Both the position numbers and the translations under genes were made by a program. Of a DNA stretch of 64,000 nt, positions 3,741 to 42,263 are shown one piece after another (position 1 is the first letter of the stretch; each line of letters begins with the position of its first letter). The stretch spans positions 240,932,001-240,996,000 of the forward strand of contig CM097885.1 in assembly GCA_044892525.1 (NCBI GenBank), read 5' to 3'. A model generated the notes under the pieces. The model was given only the letters and a program-made list of their open reading frames with translations, made no database searches and had not been told where the DNA came from. This DNA comes from Schmidtea polychroa. Its lineage: Eukaryota.

Positions 3741-3808
<68 letters not shown>

Positions 3809-4107
3809 TTTATCATTAATATTTGGAAAGATTTTAACGCCCGCGCGGAAGATGTTATTTTCAAAATTATTATTATTATTATTATTATATATAGTCCGAC
3901 TTTATCCGAAAAAATATTTTGTCCCCCTATGGGTATTGCTCACAAAGGTACTACTCAAACTCANNNNNNNNNNNNNNNNNNNNNNNNNNNNNNNNNNNNN
4001 NNNNNNNNNNNNNNNNNNNNNNNNNNNNNNNNNNNNNNNNNNNNNNNNNNNNNNNNNNNNNNNNNNNNNNNNNNNNNNNNNNNNNNNNNNNNNNNNNNNN
4101 NNNNNNG

Positions 4108-4842
4108 ATTAAAGTTTTGGATCCGGATAACTCAAAACTACATAAATTGATCTCACGTATTCCTATGTCACGTCGTACAACTGCGCGTCGAATTGGCCAA
4201 ATTACCGAAAATGTTGAAAATAATTTGATGTGTGATTTAAAAAATTGTACAGCATTCAGTTTAGCTCTCGACGAGTCTACTGACATTCAGTATGTTCCAC
4301 AATTAGCCGTTTTTAAAAAAGCGGTTGGGGAATTGGAGTTATTAGATATGCAAGAGGACCAGGCTTTGCAAATGCACCATAAAGTTACTTCTATAATTGA
4401 ATTTTGGAAACTCGTACCAGAGGCAAAATATCCACACTTAAAACAAGCTGCTTGCCGTCTAATTTCAATTTTTGGTACAACATATTGTTGTGAATCTTTG
4501 TACTCCACAATGAAGTTCGTGAAGTCGAAATATCGTTCACAGTTGACCAATCAGCATCTTACAGAATTGCTGCGAACAGCTTTAACAAAGTATACACCAA
4601 ATTTCAAAGATTTGACCAAAAGTCTTCGTTAATTCAAGAAATTTTATTACTTTTTATTAATGGATTTTTATTATATTTTATGTTTGTTACTTAAATTTTG
4701 AAATAATTGTTTTTAATAGCGTTTAAGTCTTTTTTAATCAAATTAATGAAATAAAAAAAAATATGTAGTTCACTATGGTGGCTCTTTAAAAAATAAATTT
4801 TCGGAAAACGTCTCTCATTGAACTCATGCGTGCCCACCCTTG
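4108..4842 (+). mobile_element. Internally deleted hAT (Buster/Charlie, GTF2IRD2-like) element nested in the left arm of Maverick 1
   Basis: ORF reads IPMSRRTTARRI...FSLALDESTDIQYVPQLAVF, joined directly to the C-terminal dimerisation domain EFWKLVPEAKYPHLKQAACRLISIFGTTYCCESLYSTMKFVKSKYRSQL. Right TIR GTGCCCACCCTTG ends at 4842; the left end lies in the N-run. Confidence 0.9.
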
Positions 4843-5409
4843 ATATATATATATATATATATATACAAATTTATATAATTTTTGGTGCCTGCATTCACAA
4901 AATTAGACAAATAATATATAAAAAAATGAATACAAAGCTAAGATTTATTAACATGTAAATTAATATAAAAAACAATTATCATAGAAATTACACATAAATT
5001 AAAATAAAAATACCATTCTAAGATCATAAATAAAATAAATCTGAAAAACAGCATAAAATTTAACTAGTTAAAATTTTTAACCATTTAAATAAATCAAATT
5101 TTGATTTTGATGTCCACACTCGCATTCGCGGTCCTACTAAAATCAGCGAGTGTGAAATTATTTAAGTTGAATGATTGCTTTATTTTTATAGAATTGATTG
5201 CTTTAAACGATGCCTGTGCAACACAGAACCATTTTTTGAAAATATACAAGATCTGGTGGCCGCATAATAATTATTTTAAATTATTATAAAAATACTGAGA
5301 AATATTAAGTTTTCAAATAATACTTTATTGTTAAGTTTATTCATAAGCTTCATATTTAAATTATGTGAATATAATATCACTTTTTAATGCGAAATTTGCT
5401 TTTCTTTTG

Positions 5410-5740
5410 TTTTGGCAAGTTTAAAATTTGTAAGAGAACATTTGAGCTGGTCTTTGAGATTTTCGTCTTCTAGTGATCCTCGGTATTTTGACTTATTATG
5501 TTTTATTTTTGAAAAGAATATTTCGCACAAATATGCCGTACCAAGAAAATTAATAATTTTAAGTGCATTGAATCTTAATTTTGGAAACTATTTTCTATCA
5601 AAAATTTTTTTATAAAATTCAATTTTATCATGCGTTTGGAAGAGCTGTTCTAACTGGAAATTAACTTGCATGTATATAATCTCGAGTTGGTACTTATCTG
5701 GAACTATAATTGTTTATGAAGTTCCAAGCATTTTCAATCC
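5410..5740 (-). mobile_element. Second hAT C-terminal fragment nested in the left arm of Maverick 1
   Basis: Minus strand: YQLEII...FPKLRFNALKIINFLGTAYLCEIFFSKIKHNKSKYRGSLEDENLKDQLKCSLT, with one stop; hAT dimerisation domain. Confidence 0.8.
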
Positions 5741-5759
5741 CTCAACTTTTTCATCATCA

Positions 5760-5817
<58 letters not shown>

Positions 5818-5910
5818 GTTGTAGCACACACTCATTATACTAATTACCAATAGAAATATTGTATTCATGTTGTATCAAATAAAAACTCATATTTTTACTT
5901 TTATAATCTA

Positions 5911-5957
5911 TCAACCAATCAGAATCATATGATATTTCAGTAGTAGTAATATAAATA
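5911..5957 (+). promoter_or_regulatory. CCAAT box (TCAACCAATCAG) plus TATAAATA upstream of the chimeric ORF; mirror copy at 8827-8838 serves the Bcl-2-like gene
   Basis: The same 12-mer recurs, reversed, at 7209-7220 with TGAGTCA and TATAAAA upstream of ATG 7279. Confidence 0.55.
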
Positions 5958-5985
5958 AAACAGTATATTAAAAATTATTGTAAAA

Positions 5986-6450
5986 ATGTCTCAATTTATT
6001 GAAAATGTTCTAAACGGAATTGTCACCGCGAATATAGTCGACAGCCTCAATTTCCTGGTCAATCGAACCGAACAAATCATTGAACTTGAACATATCGATT
6101 ATCAGCAAATGATGGAGATGGAATGCCTGGAAACCAAGAAGTATTCAATAGAATATTTCAGTGTCTTGGATAATAATAAATTACAATATCGAATCAATAA
6201 TATTAAAATCCAATCAGTTACCGTTACTATGGATATGGGACATAGTATCAATATATATAACATGTCGAGAAAATGTGATTGTATGTTTGAACCGCAATTG
6301 TTTCCGACACTAAGACTATTAAAATATAACCGTATATGTGTCAACGTGTTTGTTAGTGGAAAGGTTGTCATGCTGGGGTTGAGAAATTTGGAGTATAGGG
6401 AATTTGTTAACAATGTTAGGAATAAGATATTTTCATTGGTCGATTTCTAA
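5986..6450 (+). CDS. Chimeric ORF: Bcl-2-like N-terminus (from the TIR) fused to a single TBP-fold repeat, 154 aa
   Basis: C-terminal half NIKIQSVTVTMDMGHSINIYNM...MFEPQLFPTLRLLKYNRICVNVFVSGKVVMLGLRN matches the TBP repeat consensus (FKIQNMVGSCD...YEPELFPGL...LIFVSGKVVLTG). The first ~60 codons are the inverted copy of the 8238-8763 gene start. Confidence 0.8.
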   Translation: MSQFIENVLNGIVTANIVDSLNFLVNRTEQIIELEHIDYQQMMEMECLETKKYSIEYFSVLDNNKLQYRINNIKIQSVTVTMDMGHSINIYNMSRKCDCMFEPQLFPTLRLLKYNRICVNVFVSGKVVMLGLRNLEYREFVNNVRNKIFSLVDF

Positions 6451-6505
6451 TTGGTTAATTTCTAATTGGTTAATGTTTGTTTTAAACAAACTGTTTTTTG
6501 TTTAG

Positions 6506-6930
6506 ATGTCATTTTTCAAAATGTACAAAATTCCAAGCGCCACTCGTTTGATGAAACAAATTGATAATTATGGTAAATTTTAGATTTATTATTTACATTT
6601 TTATAGTCTTTATTTTCAGATAAATATTCAGAAGTCATGTTAAATCGACTCAAGTATTTTTATCCCCAACTAAATGAAATTCTAAATGACCAAGAACCTG
6701 AGATTATTCCAGATCTCGTATTTTATGCAACCCAAATCAGGATATTAGAGGTGTTCCATCAATTCCTGTGGAGCATTAAGATAGATAGACAACAGAAAGA
6801 TATGGAACCGGAATACCAATGCATCATCGGATGCTCTTTCTGTGCCGATCGTTATCGGCGATATGTCGAGTGGGAATTAGTGAAAACTCTCAGAAGGTTT
6901 CACTATTCTCGAGTTGTAGATCTCGGGTGA
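6506..6930 (+). CDS. Spliced orphan ORF in Maverick 1 (exons 6506-6572 and 6620-6930), with a C-x3-C-x2-C motif
   Basis: A 47-nt GT..AG intron (6573-6619) joins MSFFKMYKIPSATRLMKQIDNY-D in frame to the listed 97-aa ORF. Confidence 0.6.
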
Positions 6931-7278
6931 TTGTATTAATAAATGTTTTATTGTGTTTTTATTGTTTTTTCTTTTATATATTTCAAATAATAGTAATATA
7001 AATAATAATAATAATAATAATTTGAGAATAATAATAATAAATAATAGTAATAATAATTTGAGAATAGTAATAATAAATAACATGACCCATTAATAATAAT
7101 AGAAATAGATTGAAAATAGTAATAATAAAACAATAATGATATGACACAGAAAATTAATGCAACATCAATGCAATTATGAATGCAATTTAAACAATGACAT
7201 GCTATAATCTGATTGGTTGATATGCATGAGTCAAAGGTATAAAAACCCTGTAACATTTCATTTTAATCATTATTCGCG

Positions 7279-7792
7279 ATGACCAAGATAATTTCAAGCA
7301 CCGAAAACCCTAAAGAAGAACTTGTACAACCGGATCAAATGTTCCACAGCTACAAAATGTATGTTTTAAAGGAAGAAATCAATATGAAATTGGTTGCCCC
7401 GGTCAAGCTTATTCCAACTCAATTTCATTTCTTATCCGGCACGCTTTCAATGATAGATGTTAAAACTATTGATGATGTTTTTAAACGGATAAATTCTAAT
7501 CTAGCATGTAATCAACATGCATGGTTCAACAACAGATATGCAAAATTTTATGATGCATTTGATGAAATCAGTTTCAAAGAAAATGAAAATTGGTAATATA
7601 ACAATTGCAATCCAGGGATATAAAGTTGATAATAATGATGTGTATTCTCCTATTTGGAAAATGATGTCTATTTTAATGTTATATTTAATGTATTTAATAA
7701 AAGTATTAGGCATATTTGTTTTTCTCTTTATTAACAAAGAAATTGCAACATTAATGAAAATGACATGCAAATTTAACAAAAAAAATCTATAA
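7279..7792 (+). pseudogene. Orphan ORF in Maverick 1 (105 aa to 7596; probable frameshifted continuation with a hydrophobic segment to 7792)
   Basis: ATG follows CCAAT, AP-1 and TATA motifs. An overlapping frame continues KIGNITIAIQGY...MMSILMLYLMYLIKVLGIFVFLFI. No family recognised. Confidence 0.5.
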
Positions 7793-7852
7793 ACAAACTT
7801 ATAATATAGTTTTAAAGTGATAAAAAATGACTGCAGAAAAAGGTTAGCATGA

Positions 7853-8188
7853 TTAATTAATTTCCGAATTATTTATAATTTAGAATTTGTAATCAACTTT
7901 TTGTTGGAAAAATTAGCCGAAATAGCTGGTGTAAAAATTGAGGATATATTATCTGTTGCAAATGCATTAAATATCGGCTGGGTAGTTGAGAGTCAAGATT
8001 CATGATTTGATGATCAGGAAGAATCTGATACTCAAGAAACCGATACCCAAGAAATTGATGAGGAAATCTGTGAACCTATAGATGAACTTATAGATACGGA
8101 AAATATTACGAATGATTGTGTAGATCATGTCGTTGAAAATGCAATGAAATGTGGAGATGATGATTGCGAATGTGTTAATAAATTTTAA
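7853..8188 (+). pseudogene. Acidic orphan reading frame with one internal TGA (8003-8005)
   Basis: Reads NLEFVINFLLEKLAEIAGVKIEDILSVANALNIGWVVESQDS*FDDQEESDTQETDTQEIDEEICEP...CGDDDCECVNKF*. Confidence 0.45.
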
Positions 8189-8237
8189 AATTGAATTGAA
8201 TTATTTGCATTCAAATATACTATTATAAACAATAACA

Positions 8238-8763
8238 TTAATTTTTATTCATATATCTACAAAAAATATACATTATAACAACTCCAGTTGCAAATTTTAT
8301 ATAGTTTGTCATTTTTCTTTTGATTTCATCAGTTTCTTTAGCATTGTGGGCAAGTTTATTTAATACACCCCATCCGCCACTGGCTTCTATCAAGGGGGTA
8401 AACTTGGACTTGATTATCTAGAAATGAATATTATTAAAATATATATAGACTATAAAAGAAATCTTACTTCTAAAGACTACTGATAATAATGTTCTGAGTC
8501 ATGTTGACTATTTGCAAAGATTATTTTCATGTAGGTGAATCCTACAATTATCCTTGTCCATTTCATGTCTTCATCGAAAAGACATTGAAATATTCTATTG
8601 AAGTAATACTTATTGGTTTCCAGGCATTCCATCTCCATCATTTGCTGATAATCGATATGTTCAAGTTCAATGATTTGTTCGGTTCGATTGACCAGGAAAT
8701 TGAGGCTGTCGACTTATTCGCGGTGACAATTCCGTTTAAAACATTTTCAATAAATTGAGACAT
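8238..8763 (-). pseudogene. Bcl-2-family gene carried by Maverick 1 (BH1, BH2, C-terminal membrane anchor; one intron; two lesions)
   Basis: BH1-like FNRIFQCLFDEDMKWTRIIVGFTYMKIIF, BH2-like PLIEASGGWGVL, tail anchor YIKFATGVVIMYIFCRYMNKN*. Phase-0 50-nt intron GTAAGA..TTTCTAG at 8467-8418. Lesions: 1-bp deletion near 8715 (intact in the left-arm copy) and TAG at 8479-8477. Confidence 0.8.
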
Positions 8764-10798
8764 TTTTACAATAATTTTTAATATACTGTTTTATTTATAT
8801 TACTACTACTGAAATATCATATGATTCTGATTGGTTGATAGATTATAAAAGTAAAAATATGAGTTTTGATTTGATACAACATGAATACAATATTTCTATT
8901 GGTAATTAGTATAATGAGTGTGTGCTAAAACTAATAATAATAATAATAATAATATCTTTTAATATATTTTAATATCTTTCCCAATATTAATGATAAAAAT
9001 AATATTTATATATCATTAAATAGATCTTGCACTATGCTTTAAAATGAGCTATCGTTTAATAAAATCGGATGATGGGAACACTAACTTGTTTCATGACCAA
9101 AAACAGGTCACCGCTGGAACAAAGACATTATATTTTTAAAATATTAATATTTAAAAAAAATAATGTCTTTGTTCCAGCGGTAACCTGTTTTTTGATGAGT
9201 CATCGGATGAGTCATCGTCTTTGTTCTACAAAAATTATTTTTTAAAAAAAATTTCGCCCGGGGGAGGGGGTATATGTCTTTATTCCAGCGGTGACCTGTT
9301 TTAGCGGTGACCCATCCATCTACTTGGCGATTATTAGTAAAAAGTGAGCTCACTCTGGTGAACTATAATTGGATAACATTCTTATGGATCCACGGACTAT
9401 TAATGGACGATATTTTTCCGATTTATTTCATGGTCCCTGTTATCGTTTAACGCTCAACGAAAAACATAAGAATTGTTAGAAAATTCGACCATAATTCATT
9501 TAAATTTTATTGTACACAAAAAATGTATTTAAGGCAAATTTATTCGGCCTGCAAACGGGTCACAGGTTGTTCTCCAATTCAGACTAAAACTCTGTTAGTC
9601 ATTATTGACCAAACGTTTTGAATTAATTAGTTAAACAAGCTTAACAATTTCATTAAAGTTCTGATCTATTTTAATTTATGTTTAACTACTATTTTTTAAC
9701 TACTATACTTAAAAGTTTTTAATTTATTATTCTGAAAAACCAAATTAATTTTGATCAGACTTATAAGCCTAAAACCCTATTTATGACATCGCTGACTAAA
9801 TTGCCCCATGAATTGGCTGCGCTTTTATACTCATTCTATAATTAAATTCTTTCCCAATCAAATTGATTTTGGGATTTTGAGACTCTCTCTCTCCAGGCTT
9901 TACATTCATCACCTAATTTGTTTTGAATTTCGAATATTTAGGTTTATGAACAATTCATTTATTTTTATGTTAATTTGCCCGAATTTAATTTACCGGTGGC
10001 TCTTTGTTCTCTCGGGTTTTGCTCATACCCCAATTTGGCCTAACCTAATTAAAAATTTTGTTGAATAATCGAATTTTTTCACACTGCTCTGGTTTCCCAT
10101 TAACTCGGGTTTTTAATTAGATAATTAATTTTTAATTAATTTTAGTTTTTTGTAAATATTTCCTTCTGGGGACTCCCCATTCATTTTATTTCATTATATA
10201 TGAATTCGTCTCATTGGTTTGTCATCCATCCATATCAGTTTCCTCCTGAAAATATTCATTTTAAATATTTTTGTACTTTTAATTATTATTGTGAATTTGA
10301 TGTTATTTATATTTTATTTTTGTGCCTATTTCATTAAACTCCAACAATATTATTTTTATGTTAATGATTTTTTGTGTCTGTTTTCTCAACTTTTAACTGT
10401 TTATTGGGTGTTTTCATATTGTTTGAGTTTAACTCGACTTAATGCTATGTTTTTCGTGTTTTATTACCCCCCTGCTTCTTCAAAATCCTCACAATTAGAG
10501 CTTTGTTTTATCGAATGTCAGTTTTGGCCCAATAATTTTATTAATTGATTGCAAAAATTATAAATGAAATGCTTATTAATAAAATATCATTTTAAAAGGT
10601 TTTAAAATAAATATTTTAAAAAATAGATTAATTTCAAAAATAATAATTAATTATTTAAATTGAATTGAAAAATGTTTTAAAATAATAAAATTTTTTAATC
10701 TGTTTATTAAATTTATAATATTTATAGATTTTTCTATCCTATATATAAGGATGACAGGAAAACTTTATTGTCTATTTAATAATAATAAATGTAACTTA

Positions 10799-12157
10799 GG
10801 TATAAGTATACAATAGGGGGGCCACTTTTTTATAAATAAATATATATAGATATAAATATTTAAATATATTAAAGTAATTAAAACATAGTATAGTTCAAGT
10901 ATATATATTAAAAAGACTATCAAGTTACGTTTATATTTACTTGGTATTACACACCACCAAAATCATATTTTTCACGTATTTGATTGATTAATACATCAAA
11001 CGCACGCTCATTTCGACAAAATCTTCTTCTCCACATGAATTCATCTAAGTACGAAGGAATGAAGCTACATCTAGTCCCAAACATATACTTAAATTTCCTT
11101 TTACATAAGGCCCACGAACCTTCTATTCCATTGGTGTTAACGCCGGTTAGGGGATCAATAAAGTGTTCCGAGTGATTCACCCACTGGTGTACATACGGTC
11201 CCAGTCTAGCTAAAGGTGTAGGTGCATTTGGGTTTCGTCGGGGACCACCAGTATAGGTCGAGAATTCATCGGTCCAAATAGTCGTTCCCGGAAGTACAAC
11301 ACGCGAAAAAATCGGAAAAATTTCTTTTTGGGTCCTATTATCAACGAATTCAAAATGTACATTCTTCGTAGTATAGTCTAGAATTCCGAAAACCCACCCA
11401 CTGCGGGCATTCCCTCTCGGTTCGCCACGATTATGCAGCAAATTCATTAACTTGGACTCATCCGCTTGCACTATATGATCTACTCCACCAAACAATAAAG
11501 GTTGAGATACTAACTTCCAACTGGCAATATCTCTGAAATACTGGTACCATTGAATTATAGTTTTTTTGGAAATATCGGTGAAAAGCTGAACTTGTTTAAT
11601 GGAGCATTCCGCGCCCCAAAAATACATCAATAGAAAAAGCTCACGAATATGCAGTTTTGAATTACAAAAAAAACTCCCGTTTGTAATTGTTTGCTTGATT
11701 CGATGAGGATTTACGCGTGCCCGACTCCGGCAAACAAATATATATTCATTTACGACTTTGGAATCTTTAACTAGTTCCATAATACGCCCGCATCTCGCGC
11801 AGGTTGGATCGGCTCGTAACAAACCTACACTTTGGCAATGTCTTATCAAAGACAGTGTGTCTCTTGAAAGTTCATATATTTGCTTTAAATTCATGGCCTC
11901 ATATTTATATATATATATACGTTAAAGATTAATTAAAACATCTTTTAAATAAGGATATNNNNNNNNNNNNNNNNNNNNNNNNNNNNNNNNNNNNNNNNNN
12001 NNNNNNNNNNNNNNNNNNNNNNNNNNNNNNNNNNNNNNNNNNNNNNNNNNNNNNNNNNNNNNNNNNNNNNNNNNNNNNNNNNNNNNNNNNNNNNNNNNNN
12101 NNNNNNNNNNNNNNNNNNNNNNNNNNNNNNNNGGCCCCCCTATTGTATACTTATACC
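10799..12157 (-). mobile_element. Merlin (IS1595/ISXO2-like) DNA transposon
   Basis: TIR GGTATAAGTATACAATAGGGGGGCC at both ends; exact 8-bp TSD GTAACTTA at 10791-10798 and 12158-12165. Confidence 0.95.
10947..11894 (-). CDS. Merlin/ISXO2-like DDE transposase, 315 aa, uninterrupted
   Basis: N-terminal CxxCG zinc ribbon; VQADESK, WVFG, IWTDEFSTY and HQWVNHSEHFIDPLTGVNTNGIEGSW...K motifs. Confidence 0.93.
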   Translation of the reverse strand: MNLKQIYELSRDTLSLIRHCQSVGLLRADPTCARCGRIMELVKDSKVVNEYIFVCRSRARVNPHRIKQTITNGSFFCNSKLHIRELFLLMYFWGAECSIKQVQLFTDISKKTIIQWYQYFRDIASWKLVSQPLLFGGVDHIVQADESKLMNLLHNRGEPRGNARSGWVFGILDYTTKNVHFEFVDNRTQKEIFPIFSRVVLPGTTIWTDEFSTYTGGPRRNPNAPTPLARLGPYVHQWVNHSEHFIDPLTGVNTNGIEGSWALCKRKFKYMFGTRCSFIPSYLDEFMWRRRFCRNERAFDVLINQIREKYDFGGV

Positions 12158-13239
12158 GTAACTTAATTTTTCGTATAATTAAATATTTTTTACTATAGTT
12201 TTAATTTATTTATTTTATTAATCAAAATTTTATATTATTAATTAAAAATTTATATTATCTACAAAAAATCTTATCGGATTTTTTTAATAATAATTTATTA
12301 TTTTACCACAAATACTATTGAAAAAGCAATTGAAAACGAAATCAGCACTATTTAAATATTTTTTGTCTTCATATAGTAAAGATCAATTCCTGTCAATGCA
12401 AAGTGAAAAAACATGACAATTGTAGTGCAAAATAAATGTGTATTCATGGTAAATTAAAATAACTACATTAAACAGAAAGGTAAATAAAATGCGAATAAAA
12501 TCACTGGCATTCCATTCTTCGGAATGTCAACTGCGATTCAATTAGACTTTGGTTCACCGATCGGGTAATTGGAACAGAATTAGTGAAATTTCTCAGGAAT
12601 TATCTATATTATTACTTTTAGTGAAATTTTTCGGTGACTACGATGAATTCGGAAAATTCGTTGGAAAATTGGTTCCTCAATTGACGCGAGTGGTTTTATA
12701 TTGTCGTAAAAATAGTTTCATTGCCTTAGTAAGTTTTGTTGATTTATCATTTGGATAACATATCATCTTCTCGTATGATATTTCTTCGTGTTTTCCTTTT
12801 AATATCTCTATCTCTTTTTTCACTTTCAAATTGTATATGAGTGTTTTCTTATATACTTCTTTCTTGAATAATAATTAAACCTTTCGAATGGTCTCACGAC
12901 GCTGCAAGAGGCGTGATGACATGCAGTGTTACCAAAGGATGATATACAGGGCGTGTGAGCATTTCTATTATCACTGACTGATTCTTCATCGGGATAAAAA
13001 TACATTGTATTTAAAAATTTAAATGTACTAAAAGTTATTTAAAAAAATTTTTTAAATAATTAGCTAAAATACAAAATTCAAAAGTTATTTGAATGAGTCT
13101 TGGAAATAAATTAAAATGTTGCAAAAATGTTGGTATCTTTTTGATAGAAATCAATTAGGTTATAAAAATTTTGAAGTTAGTTTTGCATCCGGGAAAATTA
13201 TTTTAATATAGGTTTGTAAGTTACAAATCTATCATTCAT

Positions 13240-15414: not shown

Positions 15415-16213
15415 ATGTCTAATTGCAAATCTCAACTGACAGATTTTGATTTCATTCGAATTTCAACTCCAGATTTAAACGGTTGTCACTTGTCAAAGCT
15501 TATCTCATCGCAACTTGCTCAACGTATTAAAAACAACGAAGTTGATTTATATGGTGGTGCTATAGCGCTAGGTCCAAGAACCCAATATGTGGCCATTGAT
15601 GAATTTAAAGAAAATAAATCCCGAAATGCTTTCTTTTTTCCCGACATGGACACTTTAAAACCAATCAAATGGGCAGACGATTTGGAGAGAGATTTCCATG
15701 TCGGTGATGTCATAGCAGACATGAAATGGGATGAAACGAGTCCAGTTGAATTTCATCCTCGAATTGTTGCAATAAAACAAATCCAGCGACTGGAAAAAAT
15801 GGATTTGGAATTATTTTCCGCTTTTGAACCAGAATTTAGGGCTTTTAAATTAGATTCATTTGAACCGTTTACTACTGGATTGGACATGAATAAAACGACA
15901 ATGCTAGCAAAATATGAAAAGTTTTTCATGGATTCTGTCACAAAACTTGCTGTAGCCGGTATAGACATACAGGATTGTTGCATTGAACATGGTGAAGGTC
16001 AGTTAGAAATGCCTTTATTACCCTCTTTTGGAATTTCTGCTGCTGATAAAGCTTTTCGATTCAAGCAAGGTATAAAGGAATTGGGTAAACATCACCAAAT
16101 GACTATAAGCTTCATGACAAAACCGTTTTTATCGGAGTCGAGCAGTGGCAATCATTTCAATCATTCATTATGGTATAAATCAACAAAGAGGAATGCTATG
16201 TTTGACGTAAAAG
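15415..16213 (+). CDS. Type-I glutamine synthetase / lengsin-like gene, exon 1
   Basis: FIRISTPDLNG...K, AFEPEF, IEHGEGQLE, FRFKQGIKE, FMTKPF..SSGNHFNHSLW. ATG at 15415; donor AAG|GTATGC, phase 1. Confidence 0.9.
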
Positions 16214-16305
16214 GTATGCAATATCTTTGATGAATATTGTATTTTAGTATCATAATAATATTTAAATATTGAGAACAAGTATAATTTCCTACAAATTAAA
16301 TCATA

Positions 16306-17474: not shown

Positions 17475-18811
17475 TATAATATTATTTTGTATACTACAAC
17501 ACAACTTTACCGGGCTCATAGAAATGGATAAAGACTAAAATTAACTTCTAGTTCATGGTTTACGACTGTTGTCATTTTGTTTTATTTTATTATTCAAATA
17601 TGGTTTATAGTATGAATTTTTAAATTTTAATCAAGAATTTCAATAACTGCCAAGGGGTATTTACATATGAAAAGGTTTTGACAGTTTCGTGCTGTAACTT
17701 TTGGGGGCCCTGTGTAGATACTAAAAACGTTTCTTTTAATTTTATCGCATTCATTTTTATTGATTTTAATTAAAAGAAATAATACAAAGAAATTATAAAG
17801 CAATTTTTCAAGTTTTTGAAAAAAATAACAGAATTATTAGGTATACTTGTTTCAAATTAAATCGTAGCCAATTAGATTTGTTTGAAAGTTAAATGAATTT
17901 TGAATTTCCATCTTTGGTTTTTCTTTCAATTCGACAATTTTTTTTGCTATTGGAGAAGTTTTCATAATGTATTTAATATTTGGGGCCCAGTGCGATTGGA
18001 CTTGCAATAGCGTACGGCGCTGGATTTTGCACGAGTTTTGTTCATTACGAATTACAAGAAATATCTAAACGAAAATATATTTCTATTAATGATGCGTTAT
18101 GNNNNNNNNNNNNNNNNNNNNNNNNNNNNNNNNNNNNNNNNNNNNNNNNNNNNNNNNNNNNNNNNNNNNNNNNNNNNNNNNNNNNNNNNNNNNNNNNNNN
18201 NNNNNNNNNNNNNNNNNNNNNNNNNNNNNNNNNNNAGTAGATGGATTGGGCACCGCGAAACAGGTCACCGCCAGCACAAAGACATTTTTTACCCCACCCC
18301 CCCCCCCCGGCCGGAAAAATTTTTAAAATTTTTTTTTTCAACTTGAGAACAAAGACATATGACTCATCCGATGACTCATCAAGCATTCAAGGTAGACTTG
18401 AGAACAAAGACATATGACTTATCAATGATATATAATTATTATTATTTTTAAAAATATTATTATTTCTAATGTCTTTGTGTTCGCGGTGACCTACTATTTG
18501 GCCTGCTAAAAGTTATTGTTCCCATCAACTTATTTCATCGATCGATAGCGTATTTTGAAGCTTGGTGCAAGACCTTTCGAATGAGCTATTGCTGTNNNNN
18601 NNNNNNNNNNNNNNNNNNNNNNNNNNNNNNNNNNNNNNNNNNNNNNNNNNNNNNNNNNNNNNNNNNNNNNNNNNNNNNNNNNNNNNNNNNNNNNNNNNNN
18701 NNNNNNNNNNNNNNNNNNNNNNNNNNNNNNNNNNNNNNNNNNNNNNNNNNNNNNNNNNNNNNNNNNNNNNNNNNNNNNNNNNNNNNNNNNNNNNNNNNNN
18801 NNNNNNNNNNN

Positions 18812-21288
18812 CTCCGAGTTTATCCGACAAAATATTTTATCCCCCTATGGGTAATGCTCAAAAGGGTACTGCCCCGAGTTTATCCGACAAAATATTTTCT
18901 CCCCCTATGGGTACGGCTCACAAGATTTTGTGTAAATCGTTGATTATATTATTTTTTTTGTTTTAATTATCAATTACATAATAATTTCGTTTTGTTTAAA
19001 TCGTTGATTATATTATTTTTTTGTTTTAATTATCGATTATGTTTGTTTAAATTATCGAATATGTAATAATTTAATTTTGTTTAAATCGTTGATTATATTA
19101 TTTTTTTTTGTTTTGATTATCGATTATGTTTGTTTAAATTATCGAATATGTAATAATTTAATTTTGTTTAAATCGTTGATTATATGATTTAATTTTGTTT
19201 AAATCGTTGATTATATTTTTTTTTGTTTTAATTATCAATTACACAATAATTTCGTTTTGTTTAAATCGTTGATTATATTATTTTTTTTTGTTTTGATTAT
19301 CGATTATGTTTGTTTAAATTATCGATTATGTAATAATTTAATTTTGTTTAAATCGTTGATTATATTATTTAATTTTGTTTAAATCGTTGATTATATTATT
19401 TTTTTTTGTTTTAATTATCAATTACACAATAATTTCGTTTTGTTTAAATCGTTGATTATATTATTTTTTTTTGTTTTAATTATCGATTATGTTTGTTTAA
19501 ATTATCGATTATGTAATTATTTAATTTATCATTATTATTGGGAAAGATATTAACGNNNNNNNNNNNNNNNNNNNNNNNNNNNNNNNNNNNNNNNNNNNNN
19601 NNNNNNNNNNNNNNNNNNNNNNNNNNNNNNNNNNNNNNNNNNNNNNNNNNNNNNNNNNNNNNNNNNNNNNNNNNNNNNNNNNNNNNNNNNNNNNNNNNNN
19701 NNNNNNNNNNNNNNNNNNNNNNNNNNNNNNNNNNNNNNNNNNNNNNNNNNNNNNNNNNNNNNNNNNNNNNNNNNNNNNNNNNNNNNNNNNNNNNNNNNNN
19801 NNNNNNNNNNNNNNNNNNNNNNNNNNNNNCTCCGAGTTTATCCGACAAAATATTTTATCCCCCTATGGGTAATGCTCAAAAGGGTACTGCCCCGAGTTTA
19901 TCCGACAAAATATTTTCTCCCCCTATGGGTACGGCTCACAAGATTTTGTTTAAATCGTTGATTATATTATTTTTTTTTTTTAATTATCAATTACATAATA
20001 ATTTCGTTTTGTTTAAATCGTTGATTATATTATTTTTTTGTTTTAATTATCGATTATGTTTGTTTAAATTATCGAATATGTAATAATTTAATTTTGTTTA
20101 AATCGTTGATTATATTATTTAATTTTGTTTAAATCGTTGATTATATTATTTTTTTTTGTTTTAATTATCAATTACACAATAATTTCGTTTTGTTTAAATC
20201 GTTGATTATATTATTTTTTTTGTTTTGATTATCGATTATGTTTGTTTAAATTATCGATTATGTAATAATTTAATTTTGTTTAAATCGTTGATTATATTAT
20301 TTAATTTTGTTTAAATCGTTGATTATATTATTTTTTTTTGTTTTAATTATCGATTATGTAATTATTTAATTTATCATTATTATTGGGAAAGATATTAACG
20401 NNNNNNNNNNNNNNNNNNNNNNNNNNNNNNNNNNNNNNNNNNNNNNNNNNNNNNNNNNNNNNNNNNNNNNNNNNNNNNNNNNNNNNNNNNNNNNNNNNNN
20501 NNNNNNNNNNNNNNNNNNNNNNNNNNNNNNNNNNNNNNNNNNNNNNNNNNNNNNNNNNNNNNNNNNNNNNNNNNNNNNNNNNNNNNNNNNNNNNNNNNNN
20601 NNNNNNNNNNNNNNNNNNNNNNNNNNNNNNNNNNNNNNNNNNNNNNNNNNNNNNNNNNNNNNNNNNNNNNNNNNNNNNNNNNNNNNNNNNNNATACTCCG
20701 AGTTTTTCCGACAAAATATTTTATCCCCCTATGGGTAATGCTCAATAGGGTACTGCCCCGAGTTTATCCGACAAAATATTTTCTCCCCCTATGGGTACGG
20801 CTCACAAGATTTTGTTTAAATCGTTGATTATATTATTTTTTTTGTTTTAATTATCAATTACATAATAATTTCGTTTTGTTTAAACCGTTGATTATATTAT
20901 TTTTTTGTTTTAATTATCGATTATGTTTGTTTAAATTATCGAATATGTAATAATTTAATTTTGTTTAAATCGTTGATTATATTATTTAATTTTGTTTAAA
21001 TCGTTGATTATATTATTTTTTTTTGTTTTAATTATCAATTACACAATAATTTCGTTTTGTTTAAATCGTTGATTATATTATTTTTTTGTTTTGATTATCG
21101 ATTATGTTTGTTTAAATTATCGATTATGTAATAATTTAATTTTGTTTAAATCGTTGATTATATTATTTAATTTTGTTTAAATCGTTGATTATATTATTTT
21201 TTTTTGTTTTAATTATCGATTATGTTTGTTTAAATTATCGATTATGTAATTATTTAATTTATCATTATTATTGGGAAAGATATTAACG
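18812..21288 (+). repeat. Three ~1-kb higher-order units (two palindrome cassettes plus AT-rich minisatellite AAATCGTTGATTATATTATT...), separated by N-runs
   Basis: Near-identical blocks at 18812-19555, 19830-20400 and 20694-21288, each ending GGGAAAGATATTAACG; a shorter inverted version lies at ~27470-27910. Confidence 0.9.
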
Positions 21289-21960
21289 NNNNNNNNNNNN
21301 NNNNNNNNNNNNNNNNNNNNNNNNNNNNNNNNNNNNNNNNNNNNNNNNNNNNNNNNNNNNNNNNNNNNNNNNNNNNNNNNNNNNNNNNNNNNNNNNNNNN
21401 NNNNNNNNNNNNNNNNNNNNNNNNNNNNNNNNNNNNNNNNNNNNNNNNNNNNNNNNNNNNNNNNNNNNNNNNNNNNNNNNNNNNNNNNNNNNNNNNNNAG
21501 TTTATCCGACAAAATATTTTGTCCCCCTATGGGTATTGCTCATATGGGTAATGGTCAAAAGTGTACTACTCACATTCAACATGTCTCAAAGGGCATAATA
21601 TAATTATTATTAAATTCTGACCAACTTAAATCAATGAAGGGGTAGAACAAAAATATATTACGTTGCGGTATTTTAAATTTAAAAATATTTTTAAAACTTA
21701 TTTTGACACTAAAGTTTACTTATTTAACAAAGACATAATTATTGCACATGCCTTGCATAAATATTATTATTTTTTAAATTTTCAATATTTCTTTTAAAGT
21801 CTTAACACGCGCGGAAGTTATTATTATTATTATTATTATTAGTGAAAAATCTAAAATATTTTCTACACACACACACAACCCATTAAACTTTATTATGATT
21901 ATTATCAATATCAGTCAAAAACCTAAAATATTTTTTACACACATATACAACTCATTAAAC

Positions 21961-22029
<69 letters not shown>

Positions 22030-22060
22030 TTCAAAGAATTATTTTCAAAATTTTTATCAA

Positions 22061-22111
<51 letters not shown>

Positions 22112-22138
22112 CTCCTAGTCTATGTTAACAAAAGGTAT

Positions 22139-22290
22139 TTAACTTGCTCAATTTGTAAAGAAAATCAAGTTTCGGTTTTGTATTTACCGTGCGGTCACGT
22201 AATTGTTTGTTCTAAGTGTCACGAGAAGAATGTTCACAATTGCCAAGCTTGTTCAACACAGATTAATGAATATCATACTATATATATATG
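22139..22290 (+). pseudogene. IAP-type C3HC4 RING finger fragment inside Maverick 2
   Basis: LTCSICKENQVSVLYLPCGHVIVCSKCHEKNVHNCQACSTQINEYHTIY = C-x2-C-x11-C-x-H-x3-C-x2-C-x7-C-x2-C. No start codon; begins just after the arm junction. Confidence 0.8.
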
Positions 22291-22421
22291 TAAGTTCTCA
22301 ATATTATATCAAATGAATTATGGTAATGGATTATGACCGGAAAAATTAACAAATAATATGAAATCACCTTGGTAATTAAATATATGGGGCGCAACTACCA
22401 AATGGTGATGAAGGAATACCC

Positions 22422-22553
22422 ATGAGTTCATCAAAATGGGAAAAAGATCTTCGCAAGAACCATGAAGATGCTCGAAAAGTAGAAAAAACCCTAACAAATA
22501 TTTTAAAGTTGAAATTATGTGTTACAGTAGTATTGGTTATTATTGTTTCGTAA
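22422..22553 (+). CDS. Short ORF with a C-terminal hydrophobic tail (43 aa), possibly a gene remnant
   Basis: MSSSKWEKDLRKNHEDARKVEKTLTNILKLKLCVTVVLVIIVS*. Confidence 0.3.
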   Translation: MSSSKWEKDLRKNHEDARKVEKTLTNILKLKLCVTVVLVIIVS

Positions 22554-25500
22554 ATAAATGTTTTAATTTGTTTTTATAAATTTATTGTTTTATTGTAATA
22601 CTTTTTGATTAAAACATATTCATTTTGTTTTAATATTTGTATTAATTTTTTAAATAGTGTTATTTATATATGGAAATTTACAATTATATATTATATACAA
22701 TTATATTTACAATTATATTTACAATTATTATAAATCATAATGATGGTTTTCTTCTGTTCATTGATTCTCCTCTGATTTTACTGCCATAATCATTTTCGAC
22801 AAAATGCAAATATAATATTTCTAGTGTCTTTGTTAATCATGCCCATTTATTGCAAAGTATTTGTTAATTATGCACTTGTATTGCAAATTTATTAGTCATA
22901 CAATTATATTATTTTTTCATGTCCTGACATAATATTATTATTTTTAATTTTATTATTATTTTGTTTAACAATACCATATAGCAAATTTTTAGGCAATTTA
23001 GTGAAATGTTATTTTAAATATAGGAATTTCTTAAGTAAAATAGATAAATTAACCTATTTAGTTAGAAATCCCTGGTTTTTGGCTGAACCATTTAATTAAA
23101 ATATTCTAGGATTCATAACAAATATTTTGATATAGTTGATACATATACCAATTATTTCAATTATTTAACTAGAAACATAACTGAATTCTTAGGTAATATA
23201 GTATTTTTTAGTGAATTTATAAATATTATCTGACATTTTGATGTATTTGACAACAAATTAATCAATAAAGACCATAGCATATTGTAAGTTTTTATATATA
23301 GTCTGAATTTATCCGACAATATATTTTGTCCCCCTATGTGTATTTGTCGTAAGGGTACTGCTTACATTCAACATGTCGCAAGGGTATATTAATTAAAGCA
23401 TATGTATATTAATTATTCTTAGGCAATTTAGTGAGAAATGGATGATCATAGATATCAGAAATTCGTGAATATTTTGAATGTAACTTACCGAATTCTCATT
23501 TCGAGCGACTAATTTATTGGTTAAATTTTTCATGTTTAGTCATTTAAAATAATATTTAGCAAAAGGTAAGATATGAATATTTAGTATTTCATAGGTAATT
23601 TATTCATCTAATGTTCATTACAATAGTTAATATAACTTCGTGAGAAATGTATGGTTATTAATATATTCATGGATATTTTTGGTAGAAAGTCTTTATCATT
23701 TGGAGTAAATTTCTGTCTATGTTCGAGACAAAAAAGAGACATAATAGAAATATGATCATTTGGTTATCATTTAACCAATTAAGGTGCTTATTAGTTAGAA
23801 ATATAGGGTTACAATTCTTTTCTAATTTAATGAGATGATCATAGGGTGTAATATATCTTTTTTGAGAAATACATGGTTAACATTTTTAAATAGGGATTTT
23901 GAGTAACCAAAACAGGGATATTTTGTGCGAATAATTTAAGAATATTGGTTAATTTTCTCTTTTTTAGTCATTTAAAATAATATTTAGCAAAGGTAATTTA
24001 GCAAAATATCATTGAAGGATTTATCCATCCGATAATAATATTCCTTCAATAGATTTTACCCTTTATTCAACCGATTTAATTTCTAGAAATCTAATTAAAA
24101 TCATAAAATTCCTTCAATAAAGATAAATTTTCTTTAGCGGTTGTCGATTTCCAACTTTTAAGTCAATATTTCTCAAGTTTTGTCACTGATATCCCCACAA
24201 TGACTAAAATAACTTTTTAAATAAAATAATTTAAAGCAATAACCTTTGATATCAATCCCAATTAATTCTAAAGATTTCAAATATTTCATTGTGAAAACCA
24301 AGTCAATTGATCATTAACCCTAAACGACTTAATAAAACAGTGGATAATTAATAAAAAACTTGTTCTAAAACATAAATTACTGTGCAATAACATTCATCAC
24401 AGCCTAATAAACGATATAATTTCACAGGAGCTATTATTAATTCATAGCTGACTATTTCCCTTTAAAATTTTACCAATAAGAACATTGTCGATTTAAATAG
24501 AGATTTCAAACATTTCCACCTTAACCAATCCCTCACCAAATATTTCTACCATTTTAAACACCCCCCCCCCTTAAAAATCATATATTACCATCTTAACCAA
24601 CCGACTTTAATATATCAGCCCTTTAATATATCAATTCTCTTAAATCCATAGAAAATTCATCAAAATATGAATATTATTTAATTGTTTCAGACATCCCTCC
24701 ATTGAAATAATTTAGTATCTAAATTCATGTAGTAAAAGCCCACTAAAAGATCAAATTTACTAAAATCAATATTTTCTACAAATATTTCGCCACATTTACC
24801 ATCAAATACCTAACTAGAGATGAAATATATTGTTTGATCATAATTCTTCATCGATTCAGCTAATTATATAGCAATTATAACGTGATATATCTTTCAAAAT
24901 CACAAATTTCAGTATATTTTACAATAATTTTTACAAAAATTAAATAATGATCACTTGATTATTGTAAAAACTCTAATTATTAACCTAACTGTCATTAAAA
25001 ATAATTTTTATTTAAAATTAAATTTAAAAACAAGTCAATAAAATATAGCAAATTATCAAGAAATTAATTAAATTTGTCTTAGAATTAACACTAAAACGTT
25101 AAATTTCAAAATATTCTTTCAATTATTCACAAAAAGGTTAGTAATAATGTTAGTAAAATCCCGCTAACTCTAAAAATTACCAATGAATTTAATGCTAAAT
25201 AATAACCAAAAATTTGCCTAAATAAAATCATTAAAACATCCCAGTACCATTACGACCAGTACCCTTACGAGCAGTACCAATTGTGAACAGTACCCATAGA
25301 GGGAGAAAATATCTTGTCGGATAAACTCAGAGTATATATAATAAAACGAATTAACAATAACTCCATCAAATTGAATCAGTCAAATTAACACAAATTTTGA
25401 TAAAAAAATCATATTCTAAAATGGTAAGAAGCGTAAAGTCGAAAGATAATTTTAATAACACCGAGATAAATTAACAATATCATTCTCAGGTGGTAAGGAT

Positions 25501-26045
25501 CTTTAAATGCATTTAAAAAAATGCATTCAAAATGCATTTATCATAATTAAATAAATCAATCAAATATTCAATAGAGGAATGTTTGAAAATTTTTAAAATA
25601 TTTATGATTTCCTTATCAGTGTAAGTATCGTGATTATTTATAAAAGCTTCAACTGTGCTGTTAAAAAATTTCAATGAACGCTTATCTTCGGAATAGGTTG
25701 GACTTAATTTTTCCATATTTCTAGTAGGACTTATATAAAAAATATTGACAAAATAATAAAGTTACTAAATGTGTTTTGTGATTTACACAATCATATTCAT
25801 ACTTGTAGAAATCATCAGTAATAAATAAATTTCTTAATAACTAAATTACTTTTGTTTTTACATTTATAAAAATTGAGATAGCCAATCAAATTAGTGTTTT
25901 ATAAAATGTAGAAATTGTAACCATGGTTGAACAATAATAATAATAAGCACGACTAGTACCCTTGCAACCTGTTGAGTGTGAGCAGTACCCATAGGGGGGA
26001 CAAAATATTTTGTCGGATAGACTAGGAGTATATATAATAATAATA

Positions 26046-26076
<31 letters not shown>

Positions 26077-26371
26077 AAATAAGAAATTTGAAGATAATTT
26101 TGAAAATGATAATAATAATATTTTATAAATAAAATAAGAATTTTGAAGAAAATAATCATGAAAATTATGAAAATGTTAAAAATAATGAAAATATAGAAAA
26201 TGATGAAAATGTTGAAAATGATGAAAACGTTAAAAATTATGGAAATGATCCTGAAAATAATCATCAAATATTGAAAATCGTAAAATGGTGCAGAAATTAA
26301 GTTTTATGAATATTTAAGTAAATAATGATAATGAAACTTCTACAATAAAATAATAATTAGAATTTTGCAAA

Positions 26372-26402
<31 letters not shown>

Positions 26403-26652
26403 AATATTGATAAAAATTTTGAAAATAATTCTTAGAAAATAATACTTTGAAAAATATTTGATGAAAAGTTCCTGAAATAATCATGAAAATGTTGAAAATC
26501 GTGAAAATATTGAAAATGTAGAAAATTATTAAAATATTCATGCAAATGATGAAAATGTTGAAAATCATGAAATTGACGTAAAAATTATGTTTTATAAATA
26601 TTTAAGTAAATAATAATAATGAAACTTCTAAAATAATAGTTAGAATTTTGCA

Positions 26653-26697
<45 letters not shown>

Positions 26698-26834
26698 GTT
26701 TAATGAGTTGTATATGTGTGTAAAAAATATTTTAGGTTTTTGACTGATATTGATAATAATCATAATATAGATAATAATAATAATAAAGTTTAATGGGTTG
26801 TGTGTGTGTGTAGAAAATATTTTAGATTTTTCAC

Positions 26835-26874
<40 letters not shown>

Positions 26875-27920
26875 TTCCGCGCGTGTTAAGACTTTAAAAG
26901 AAATATTGAAAATTTAAAAAATAATAATATTTATGCAAGGCATGTGCAATAATTATGTCTTTGTTAAATAAGTAAACTTTAGTGTCAAAATAAGTTTTTA
27001 AAATATTTTTAAATTTAAAATACCGCAACGTAATATATTTTTGTTCTACCCCTTCATTGATTTAAGTTGGTCAGAATTTAATAATAATTATATTATGCCC
27101 TTTGAGACATGTTGAATGTGAGTAGTACACTTTTGACAATTACCCATATGAGCAATACCCATAGGGGGACAAAATATTTTGTCGGATAAACTNNNNNNNN
27201 NNNNNNNNNNNNNNNNNNNNNNNNNNNNNNNNNNNNNNNNNNNNNNNNNNNNNNNNNNNNNNNNNNNNNNNNNNNNNNNNNNNNNNNNNNNNNNNNNNNN
27301 NNNNNNNNNNNNNNNNNNNNNNNNNNNNNNNNNNNNNNNNNNNNNNNNNNNNNNNNNNNNNNNNNNNNNNNNNNNNNNNNNNNNNNNNNNNNNNNNNNNN
27401 NNNNNNNNNNNNNNNNNNNNNNNNNNNNNNNNNTTGAAAATAATAATAATAATTTTGAAAATATTCCGCGCGGGCGTTAATATCTTTCCCAATAATAATG
27501 ATAAATTAAATAATTACATAATCGATAATTTAAACAAACGTGATCGATAATTAAAACAAAAAAAAATAATATAATCAACGATTTAAACAAAACGAAATTA
27601 TTGTGTAATTGATAATTAAAACAAAAAAAATAATATAATCAACGATTTAAACAAAATCTAGTGAGCTGTACCCATAAGGGGAGAAAATATTTTGTCGGAT
27701 AAACTCGGGGCAGTACCGTTTTGAGCATTACCCATAGGGGGATAAAATATTTAAAATAAAATATAATATAATCAACGATTTAAACAAAATCTAGTGAGCT
27801 GTACCCATAGGGGGAGAAAATATTTTGTCGGATAAACTCGGGGCAGTACCCTTTTGAGCATTACCCATAGGGGGATAAAATATTTTGTCGGATAAACTCG
27901 GAGTATATAGATTAATACTC

Positions 27921-27992
<72 letters not shown>

Positions 27993-41891: not shown

Positions 41892-42263
41892 CATTTTTAA
41901 TTAATGAATCAAAAATTATCATCAAAAACAAGTTCGTCGAATGCAAATTTATCGAGTGCACGTTCGTCGAATCAGAAGTTCGTCGAAAAAACATATATAC
42001 TCAAAGTTTATCCGAAAAAATATTTTGTCCCCCAATGGGTATTAGTCATAATGGTACTGGTCACACTCAACATGTTGCAAGGGTAAATTAATATTATTAT
42101 TATTATTAGCTGCACTTAAATTAGTCAAAACAAATATTTTTTCGATGAACTTGTAATTTGATTAATTTGTTCTTGTTTTTCGATAAATTTGTTATTCGAT
42201 GAATTTGCATTCTATGAAATCGTTTTCGATGAACTCGTTGGTTACCATTTTTAATTAATGAAT
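41892..42263. mobile_element. MITE-like element with imperfect inverted TTCRTCGAA repeats enclosing one palindrome cassette
   Basis: Left TTCGTCGAA repeats (41930-41990) and right TTCGATGAA repeats (42140-42235); direct repeat CATTTTTAATTAATGAAT at 41892 and 42246. Confidence 0.5.

What the first reader, a model, noticed from the sequence alone, without database searches (positions are those of the whole stretch)
3886..27910. Recurrent TATATA + 16-bp palindrome cassette (GACAAAATATTTTGTC-CCCCTATGGGTA) throughout both elements
Consensus TATATA-n-GAGTTTATCCGACAAAATATTTTGTCCCCCTATGGGTA...AAGGGTACT...CACATTCAACATGT. Copies on + at ~3890, 18812/18873, 19830/19891, 20694/20757, 21499 and 23295; on - at ~25290, 25985, 27160 and 27670-27905. 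The palindrome is perfect at 21508-21523 and conserved amid otherwise drifting AT-rich DNA. The left arm of element 2 breaks at CTAGTCTAT| (22123), right where the palindrome would begin, and the RING fragment follows. Hypotheses: replication origin or protein-binding iteron, recombination site, element-specific promoter (possibly bound by the TBP-like protein), or a small RNA unit.
Basis: partly seen in the sequence, partly recalled or inferred. Interest (0 to 1): 0.72.

Follow-up and report, generated by a model that had tools for sequence, protein, structure and literature searches.

The report
High-copy mini-repeat riding Polinton-like arms
The motif is a real, roughly 100-base non-coding repeat present in hundreds to thousands of copies in this flatworm-like genome; it looks like a small jumping element that sits inside larger virus-like transposons and was multiplied with their arms, rather than a control signal special to them.

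Summary
The motif is real: 16 copies against 1.8 expected. But only 1 lies in element 1, 14 lie in element 2, and 1 lies outside both, at 41994-42088, inside an unrelated small foldback. The palindrome is perfect in 3 of 16 copies and shows no compensatory change. The unit is a fixed ~48-bp head plus a variable run of 15-bp subunits.

Public assemblies give 11,500-19,500 times single-copy depth. After possible over-counting that means at least ~400 copies, probably thousands. They share one sharp head boundary with mixed AT-rich flanks. The 15 element-borne copies collapse to 4-5 contexts through tandem and mirror duplication.

Best reading (0.55): a short non-autonomous mobile repeat, superfamily unassigned, taken up by Polinton-like arms. 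It fails the defining tests for Helentron/HINE, Helitron1 and piggyBac MITEs, and no empty site was found. Main rival (0.25): a cis module of the arms, since all copies point inward and one position is shared by both families. Promoter, recombinase site and small RNA have little support. The scan had not noted this sequence elsewhere.

The parts
3888..3963 (+). Cassette copy A, the only copy in element 1; 453 bp inside the left terminus; runs into an N run
18812..18923 (+). Tandem pair B1a/B2a (60-bp duplication), first of three arm units; upstream flank unsequenced
19830..19941 (+). Tandem pair B1b/B2b, second arm unit (cores identical to B1a/B2a)
20693..20807 (+). Tandem pair B1c/B2c, third arm unit
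21499..21597 (+). Copy C left: perfect palindrome 21508-21523, then five 15-bp-type subunits
22106..22123 (+). Head-only remnant of copy D; the arm breaks 2 bases before the palindrome
23295..23388 (+). Copy E, complete, with flanks unrelated to those of other copies
25241..25338 (-). Copy F: head plus a 15-bp tandem run (TRF period 15), tail end missing
25957..26034 (-). Copy D: perfect palindrome 25999-26014, between (TTA)n tracts
27094..27192 (-). Copy C right, mirror of C left
27659..27909 (-). B1d/B2d, B2e and a headless copy broken inside the palindrome at 27752 (133-bp duplication); head 533 bp inside the right terminus
41994..42088 (+).
41919..42246 (.). Small foldback with 15-16-bp internal repeats that carries copy G between its arms; itself multi-copy together with the cassette
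   Evidence: (tables 3, 8)
3435..9324 (.). Host element 1: ~390-bp terminal inverted repeats starting AGTAG, perfect 6-bp target duplication; Polinton/Maverick-like, no polymerase or integrase ORF seen
18236..28442 (.). Host element 2: foldback with AGTAG ends, 75% identical to element 1 at the terminus; left flank unsequenced, so no target duplication test
5986..6450 (+). TBP-like ORF of element 1; chimeric (about 60 codons of another ORF joined to one TBP repeat)
22121..22336 (+). RING-finger fragment joined to the broken left arm

Best explanation
The cassette is a short (~95-110 bp) non-coding, non-autonomous mobile repeat of this genome. It has a fixed ~48-bp head (TATATA, TTTATCC, imperfect 16-bp palindrome) and a tail of a variable number of 15-bp subunits ending mostly in GGGTA. 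Shown: it occurs in several unrelated flanks, has one sharp end, is high-copy, and most window copies arose by tandem and mirror duplication of the Polinton-like arms. Inferred: it spread on its own into TA/(TTA)n-rich sites, landed several times in microsatellite-rich Polinton-like elements and in other repeats, and now travels as their passenger. The likeliest way of moving is Helitron-like rolling-circle copying with the head as the 3' end on the minus strand (palindrome 20 nt from the fixed end, internal minisatellite, ragged other end; about 0.4 within this reading). A TA-targeting cut-and-paste MITE (about 0.25) or a retroposed 3' end with a (TAA)n tail (about 0.15) follow. The palindrome would then be part of the element's own end signal, not a signal of the Polinton-like hosts.
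For: A complete copy lies outside both elements, in a foldback with different repeats. Core identity is 82-92% across 6 contexts whose upstream flanks are mostly at random level, and downstream flanks of 4 complete copies are 50-59% (6 pairs; random 51%, 95th percentile 58%). Conservation starts abruptly at the TATATA in 6 of 6 sequenced contexts. Loose ends pile up at the same place: 29+25 contigs in X4, 17+12 in X5, 1 in X10, flank agreement 0.56-0.62; further distinct flanks appear in X5, X7 and X10 (19 of 490 rows shown). Summed depth at 42016 is 2,628,220 against 228 (X4) and 655,434 against 34-39 (X5). The tool warns this is no copy number; a random-sequence simulation gives over-counts of 0.7-24.5 fold, so at least ~400-470 copies, possibly 10^4. 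The 15-bp period is shown. 17 of 25 (TTA)n/(TAA)n tracts lie in the two elements, which would explain the local enrichment if such tracts are targets (hand binomial p about 0.38). HINE-type elements have a 3' palindrome 8-35 bp from the end and can hold tandem repeats (PMC4067079, passages).
Against: No empty site among the 13 joints listed, so the target site and insertion are not shown. No terminal or subterminal inverted repeat above 6 exact bases; the element fails the defining tests of HINE, Helitron1 and piggyBac MITEs. All 15 element-borne copies point inward (4-5 contexts, chance about 0.03-0.06). By length alone, 5 of 6 contexts inside 14.7 of 61.8 called kb is an enrichment (hand binomial p about 0.004). 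The two best-supported left-flank groups in the reads resemble the arm contexts seen here ((TTA)n and ...TTAATC), so many genomic copies may be arm-borne. Copies A and C sit at the same arm position in two families and differ at 2 of 43 bases, while the termini are 75% identical. X4 may be the sample behind this assembly and is then not independent.
Confidence: 0.55

Rival explanations
1. The cassette is a cis module of the Polinton-like arms: an iterated protein-binding site for replication, end recognition or packaging. It is kept by selection while AT-rich spacers drift, is reiterated in defective foldback derivatives, and is occasionally captured by other repeats.
For: All 15 copies point inward; first copies lie 453, 533 and about 570 bp from the termini. 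A and C are 93% identical over 45 nt at a shared arm position, against 86% for the adjacent motif and 75% for the terminus. Read flanks often resemble arm contexts. An unchecked note reports a passenger reaching about 2,000 copies inside gene-less Polinton relatives of this genome (e1-7879908), so the count alone does not separate the readings.
Against: The right arm of element 1 lacks it, yet the element has intact ends and a 6-bp duplication (the loss could postdate insertion). Copy G and its paralogues sit in a different repeat. The palindrome is broken in 13 of 16 copies without compensation. The 10 passages of PMC8097293 seen describe only 6-bp end motifs and terminal repeats, no internal palindrome.
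Confidence: 0.25
2. It is an element-specific promoter whose TATATA is bound by the Polinton TBP-like protein.
For: Invariant TATATA at the head; a TBP-family ORF in element 1 (Pfam E 1e-10); an unchecked note describes Polinton TBPs in this genome (e1-7879962).
Against: In 15 of 16 copies the longest ATG-ORF within 700 nt downstream is at most 77 codons; the exception runs through an N run into a hAT fragment. The ORFs at 5986 and 7279 have their own CCAAT-type boxes at 5915 and 7216. The TBP-like ORF here is a chimera with one repeat. That note names a different box.
Confidence: 0.07
3. The palindrome is a site-specific recombination site that drives the rearrangements of the arms.
For: Two junctions lie at it: 22123 (2 bases before) and 27752 (inside).
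Against: Of 7 junctions printed, two are at the palindrome, two lie in the 15-bp subunits with short microhomology, one in a (TTA)n tract before the cassette, one in a coding fusion and one is unresolved. No recombinase ORF was found among the 10 ORFs scanned. Symmetry is not conserved.
Confidence: 0.05
4. It is a small structured RNA gene or SINE.
For: Fixed size and ends; many copies are followed by (TAA)n on the minus strand.
Against: No Rfam match at gathering score in the window; only E 4.3 and 6.6 around copy G. 14 strands folded as DNA give z from -2.0 to +2.0 with no shared structure; RNA parameters were not run.
Confidence: 0.05

Closest known systems
HINE / DINE-1-type non-autonomous Helentrons (HLE2) (PMC4067079, PMC11417382; passages seen)
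   Same: Short, non-coding, high-copy, defined boundary, palindrome 20 nt from one end (their range 8-35 bp), internal tandem repeats, AT-rich sites.
   Different: No 11-15-bp subterminal inverted repeats. [quoted passage not shown] No empty site and no autonomous partner found.
Canonical non-autonomous Helitrons (HLE1) (PMC11417382)
   Same: One fixed end carrying a 16-bp palindrome; the other end variable.
   Different: No 5' TC and no conserved 3' CTRR; the palindrome is AT-rich and folds no better than shuffles.
piggyBac-like and other MITEs (PMC10175614; Pannagram preprint)
   Same: About 100 bp, high copy; one end reads CCCT; TATA lies outside both ends in the majority form.
   Different: No 12-19-bp terminal inverted repeats; flanks are TATA, not TTAA; the other end is CTC or GTC.
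Polinton/Maverick elements (hosts) (PMC8097293)
   Same: Element 1 has ~390-bp terminal inverted repeats and a perfect 6-bp duplication; both elements start AGTAG.
   Different: No polymerase, integrase or capsid ORF seen; the end is AGTAGA, not the (AGT)2 or (AG)3 reported for vertebrates; arms are long and internally repetitive.
Baculovirus hr palindromes and adenovirus packaging repeats (recalled, from no call)
   Same: Iterated palindrome-bearing units, here oriented and placed a few hundred bases inside the ends.
   Different: Also found in an unrelated repeat and at high copy in the host genome; symmetry is not conserved; no function tested.

Membership tests
HINE / Helentron (HLE2) | Subterminal inverted repeats of at least 11 bp | tested here: not met
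   in 5 copies the longest exact inverted pair outside the palindrome is 6 bases; local alignment scores 4-6.
HINE / Helentron (HLE2) | Palindrome 8-35 bp from the 3' end | tested here: met
   On the minus strand the palindrome ends 20 nt from the fixed boundary.
HINE / Helentron (HLE2) | Insertion between T and T with no target duplication | tested here: inconclusive
   No empty site among 13 joints; the minus-strand 3' flank is TA/(TAA)n-rich.
HINE / Helentron (HLE2) | Autonomous RepHel partner with the same ends | not testable with these tools
   No genome is held for this window.
Helitron (HLE1) | 5' TC and 3' CTRR after a hairpin | tested here: not met
   CTAG follows the palindrome only in the D type and is internal; neither end starts with a conserved TC.
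piggyBac-like MITE | TTAA target duplication | tested here: not met
   TATA, not TTAA, abuts both ends in the majority form (table 3).
piggyBac-like MITE | 12-19-bp terminal inverted repeats starting CCYT | tested here: not met
   CCCT at one end only; no inverted pair of that length.
Crypton (non-autonomous) | 4-6-bp terminal direct repeats, no TIRs | tested here: inconclusive
   TATA(T) flanks both ends in the majority form, but PMC3212892 found no terminal repeats in animal Cryptons; without an empty site it cannot be told from a target duplication.
SINE / known ncRNA | Head derived from tRNA, 5S or 7SL, or a match to a known RNA family | tested here: not met
   no Rfam match at gathering score; best E 4.3.
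Polinton/Maverick (host elements) | Terminal inverted repeats with 6-bp target duplication | tested here: met
   Element 1; element 2 cannot be tested on its left side.
Polinton/Maverick (host elements) | pPolB and integrase genes | tested here: not met
   No such ORF; the hosts are at most non-autonomous derivatives.
Polinton cis signal (origin or packaging) | Present in autonomous relatives and needed for their propagation | not testable with these tools
   No related loci were retrieved.

The most novel reading that the evidence does not exclude
The cassette is, or has been co-opted as, an oriented and iterated cis signal of planarian Polinton-like elements, placed about 450-570 bp inside each end and bound by an element-encoded protein for replication or packaging. 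Gene-less foldback derivatives would have reiterated it the way defective viral genomes amplify their cis signals, which would give a first handle on how non-autonomous Polinton satellites compete for helper proteins.
Probability: 0.15. Interest if true: 0.65.

Novelty: new member of a known kind. Interest (0 to 1): 0.22.

Why it matters
Under the best reading it is one more unclassified short repeat family nested in larger transposons. It is useful for repeat annotation and as an example of passengers multiplied by Polinton-like foldbacks, but not surprising. It would matter more if it proved to be a cis signal of Polintons, because internal replication or packaging signals of these elements were not described in the passages I read, and this motif would make them testable. 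'New member of a known kind' refers to the broad kind (short non-autonomous interspersed repeat); I do not file it in any named superfamily.

Tried and rejected
Whole-genome scan: no genome is held. Motif scans found 0 loci in viral contigs and 0 in metagenome contigs. Related loci for the TBP-like ORF or P0001: none confirmed among 15, 4 and 145 candidate stretches, so autonomous relatives could not be inspected.

Expression: no RNA holder listed. X7 and X10 are only guessed to be RNA. 68 and 1 contigs were laid, with the cassette inside longer records in several cases; contigs show neither start nor strand, so this is no evidence either way. I laid 4 of 15 listed runs, on the stretch around copy G only. 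Joints at 41742/41874/41876 to 42086-42089 were rejected as empty sites (sides of 20-22 low-complexity letters, 'between: not known').

A larger conserved hairpin was not found. The bacterial promoter scan was at chance level and is not apt for this genome. Atlas searches for the ORFs at 7279 and 6607 gave no usable hit.

Literature: a literal search for four motif strings gave one unrelated paper with a 12-mer (listing only). Other searches. The main text of PMC11410931 has no occurrence of Maverick, Polinton or MITE; its supplements and deposited repeat library were not seen, nor were the supplements of the Dugesia preprint or Repbase. The family may already be catalogued there.

Look-ups of earlier scan notes by sequence, near place and words were empty. 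Resemblances to geminivirus origins, L2 3' tails and DINE-1 ends came from recall only and were not used as evidence.
Full report
Setting. The window is AT-rich eukaryotic DNA with a glutamine-synthetase-like gene and many transposon remains. No genome is held. That it is a planarian-like flatworm rests on unchecked earlier notes; my own homology search gave a 93% relative without an organism name. Two inverted-repeat elements frame the finding. Element 1 (3435-9324) has ~390-bp terminal repeats starting AGTAG and a perfect 6-bp target duplication. Element 2 (18236-28442) has the same kind of ends, 75% identical, with its left flank unsequenced. Terminal repeats with 6-bp duplications are Maverick/Polinton features (PMC8097293, 10 of 10 passages). 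No polymerase or integrase ORF was seen, so both are at most non-autonomous derivatives.

Observation. The 16-mer has 16 matches within 3 mismatches against a mean of 1.79 in 100 shuffles, and a natural 37-nt probe returns the same 16. One is in element 1, 14 are in element 2, and one is at 41994-42088, outside both. Two partial copies lie at 22106-22123 and 27715-27752. The palindrome is perfect in 3 of 16, broken at pair 3/14 in 12 and at pair 6/11 in 2, and never compensated. Across 7 contexts 13 of its 16 columns are invariant, as are 6 of the 7 columns just before it. It is part of a conserved head, not a peak of its own.

Anatomy. Conservation begins abruptly at a TATATA 20 bases before the palindrome (6 of 6 sequenced contexts). 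After the palindrome come subunits of about 15 bp ending mostly in GGGTA, variable in number; TRF reports period 15 in copy F. Complete copies C, D, E and G end near the same GGG(T/C)A. The 48-nt core is 82-92% identical among 6 contexts. Upstream flanks are 41-62% in 14 of 15 pairs and 78% in one (TTA)n pair; downstream flanks are 50-59% in 6 pairs; random 60-mers average 51%. Fourteen strands folded as DNA give z from -2.0 to +2.0 with no shared structure. Rfam gives nothing at gathering score.

Redundancy. The nine B copies come from a 60-bp duplication carried in three tandem arm units, their mirror in the right arm, and a 133-bp duplication; cores of one type differ by 0-2 of 43 bases. 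The two C copies are mirrors. Copy A shares its upstream motif with C (86% over 78 bp) and differs from it at 2 of 43 bases. That leaves 4-5 contexts inside the elements and one outside. Five copies start directly after an N run, so their upstream flanks are unknown.

Genome-wide evidence. I laid 4 of 15 listed runs on 41600-42800 at 80% likeness. Laid were 2,193 of 10,851,225 records (X4), 819 of 3,768,180 (X5), 68 of 389,196 (X7) and 1 of 41,638 (X10). Summed depth at 42016 is 2,628,220 against 228 at the left flank in X4, and 655,434 against 34-39 in X5. The tool warns that this is no copy number. A simulation on random sequences gave over-counts of 0.7-24.5 fold over 27 values, and the ceiling is 31 by k-mer length. 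So there are at least about 400 copies and possibly 10^4. X4 may be the assembly's own sample; X5 is from another study.

Boundaries in the reads. Among 19 of 490 loose-end rows shown, the largest lie at 41993 and 41994 (29 and 25 contigs in X4, 17 and 12 in X5, flank agreement 0.56-0.62), which is the boundary seen in the window. The other end is more ragged (42075-42092). Copy G sits between the arms of a small foldback, and several contigs show that this composite is itself repeated. Two results cut the other way: none of the 13 joints is an empty site, and the two largest left-flank groups resemble the (TTA)n and ...TTAATC contexts of the arms.

How it most likely works. A short unit with one sharp end, unrelated flanks, an internal minisatellite and high copy number is best read as a non-autonomous mobile repeat (0.55). 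Its crowding in element 2 is shown to be local duplication. Its several independent contexts there are inferred to be separate landings in microsatellite-rich DNA: 17 of 25 (TTA)n tracts lie in the two elements. The way it moves is inferred only. A palindrome 20 nt from the fixed end fits the 3' end of HINE-type rolling-circle elements (PMC4067079, 12 of 26 passages). But the defining subterminal repeats are absent, as are the TC/CTRR ends of HLE1 (PMC11417382, 12 of 35 passages) and the TTAA and terminal repeats of piggyBac (PMC10175614, 12 of 14 passages). It may work like a rolling-circle element, but I do not file it as one.

Main rival. All 15 element-borne copies point inward, the first ones lie 453-570 bp from the ends, and the A/C position is better conserved between the families than their termini. 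By length alone 5 of 6 contexts inside the elements is an enrichment (hand binomial, p about 0.004). An unchecked note reports a passenger at about 2,000 copies in gene-less Polinton relatives of this genome, so depth cannot decide. This keeps a cis-module reading at 0.25. Against it stand copy G, the missing copy in the right arm of element 1, and the lack of selection on symmetry.

Promoter (0.07): no element gene follows any copy, the ORFs at 5986 and 7279 have their own CCAAT-type boxes, and the TBP-like ORF is a chimera. Its first ~60 codons match another ORF, partly duplicated at 8579-8772, and only one TBP repeat follows. Recombination site (0.05): 2 of 7 printed junctions touch the palindrome; the right arm of element 1 was joined through a (TTA)n tract before the cassette. 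Small RNA (0.05): no family, no fold, and expression could not be tested.

Literature and novelty. A literal search for four motif strings found no relevant paper. Mavericks are reported as expanded in Dugesia (preprint 10.64898/2025.12.11.693146, 5 passages), and Polintons are known to carry other transposons (preprint 10.1101/2025.02.07.637071, 12 of 16 passages). I also saw passages of PMC3212892, PMC6431247, PMC11410931 and PMC4028283. Supplements, deposited repeat libraries and Repbase were not seen, so the family may already be catalogued.

Verdict. A real, high-copy short repeat of unassigned superfamily, mostly multiplied here as a passenger of Polinton-like arms. Interest 0.22. The boldest reading not excluded, an iterated Polinton cis signal, has probability 0.15 and would deserve 0.65.

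Noticed in passing
window 5986-6450 and 8477-8954: The TBP-like ORF of element 1 is a fusion: about 60 codons of another ORF (P0002/P0003 type) joined at 6167 to one TBP repeat. 5795-6167 is repeated in inverted form at 8579-8954 (97%).
   Followed up: partly
window 3824, 8982, 19540, 20385, 21273, 27490 (and 21808, 26883): A second conserved arm motif ending in a CGCGCGG run precedes a (TTA)n tract and the cassette in both elements; it occurs only inside the elements in this window.
   Followed up: partly
window 5915, 7216, 8834: An identical 15-base CCAAT-type box lies upstream of element 1 ORFs, in opposite orientations at 5915 and 7216; a likelier promoter than the cassette.
   Followed up: partly
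window 6506-6930, 7279-7596, 7828-8188: Short orphan ORFs of element 1, the first apparently with an intron; no Pfam match at cut-off and no usable Atlas hit for the two tested.
   Followed up: partly
window 41919-42246: Small multi-copy foldback built from 15-16-bp repeats in inverted arms; some tens of times single-copy depth in X4.
   Followed up: partly
window 10947-11894 (-): Intact-looking 315-aa ORF with an IS1595/ISXO2-like (Merlin-type, name recalled) transposase domain, Pfam E 1.3e-13.
   Followed up: no
window 15415-16230 and 39270-39795: A glutamine-synthetase-like gene appears split by a ~23-kb intron that holds element 2; the second exon was judged by eye only.
   Followed up: no
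window 4107-4840: hAT transposase fragment inside element 1, directly after copy A and an N run.
   Followed up: no
window 42730-45920: Multi-exon host gene with short introns resembling a nucleotide-sugar transporter (by eye); copy G lies about 640 bp upstream of it.
   Followed up: no
window 52380-53170 and 54445-64000: AT-rich tandem array, followed by what looks by eye like a large gypsy-type retroelement with a long purine-rich ORF.
   Followed up: no
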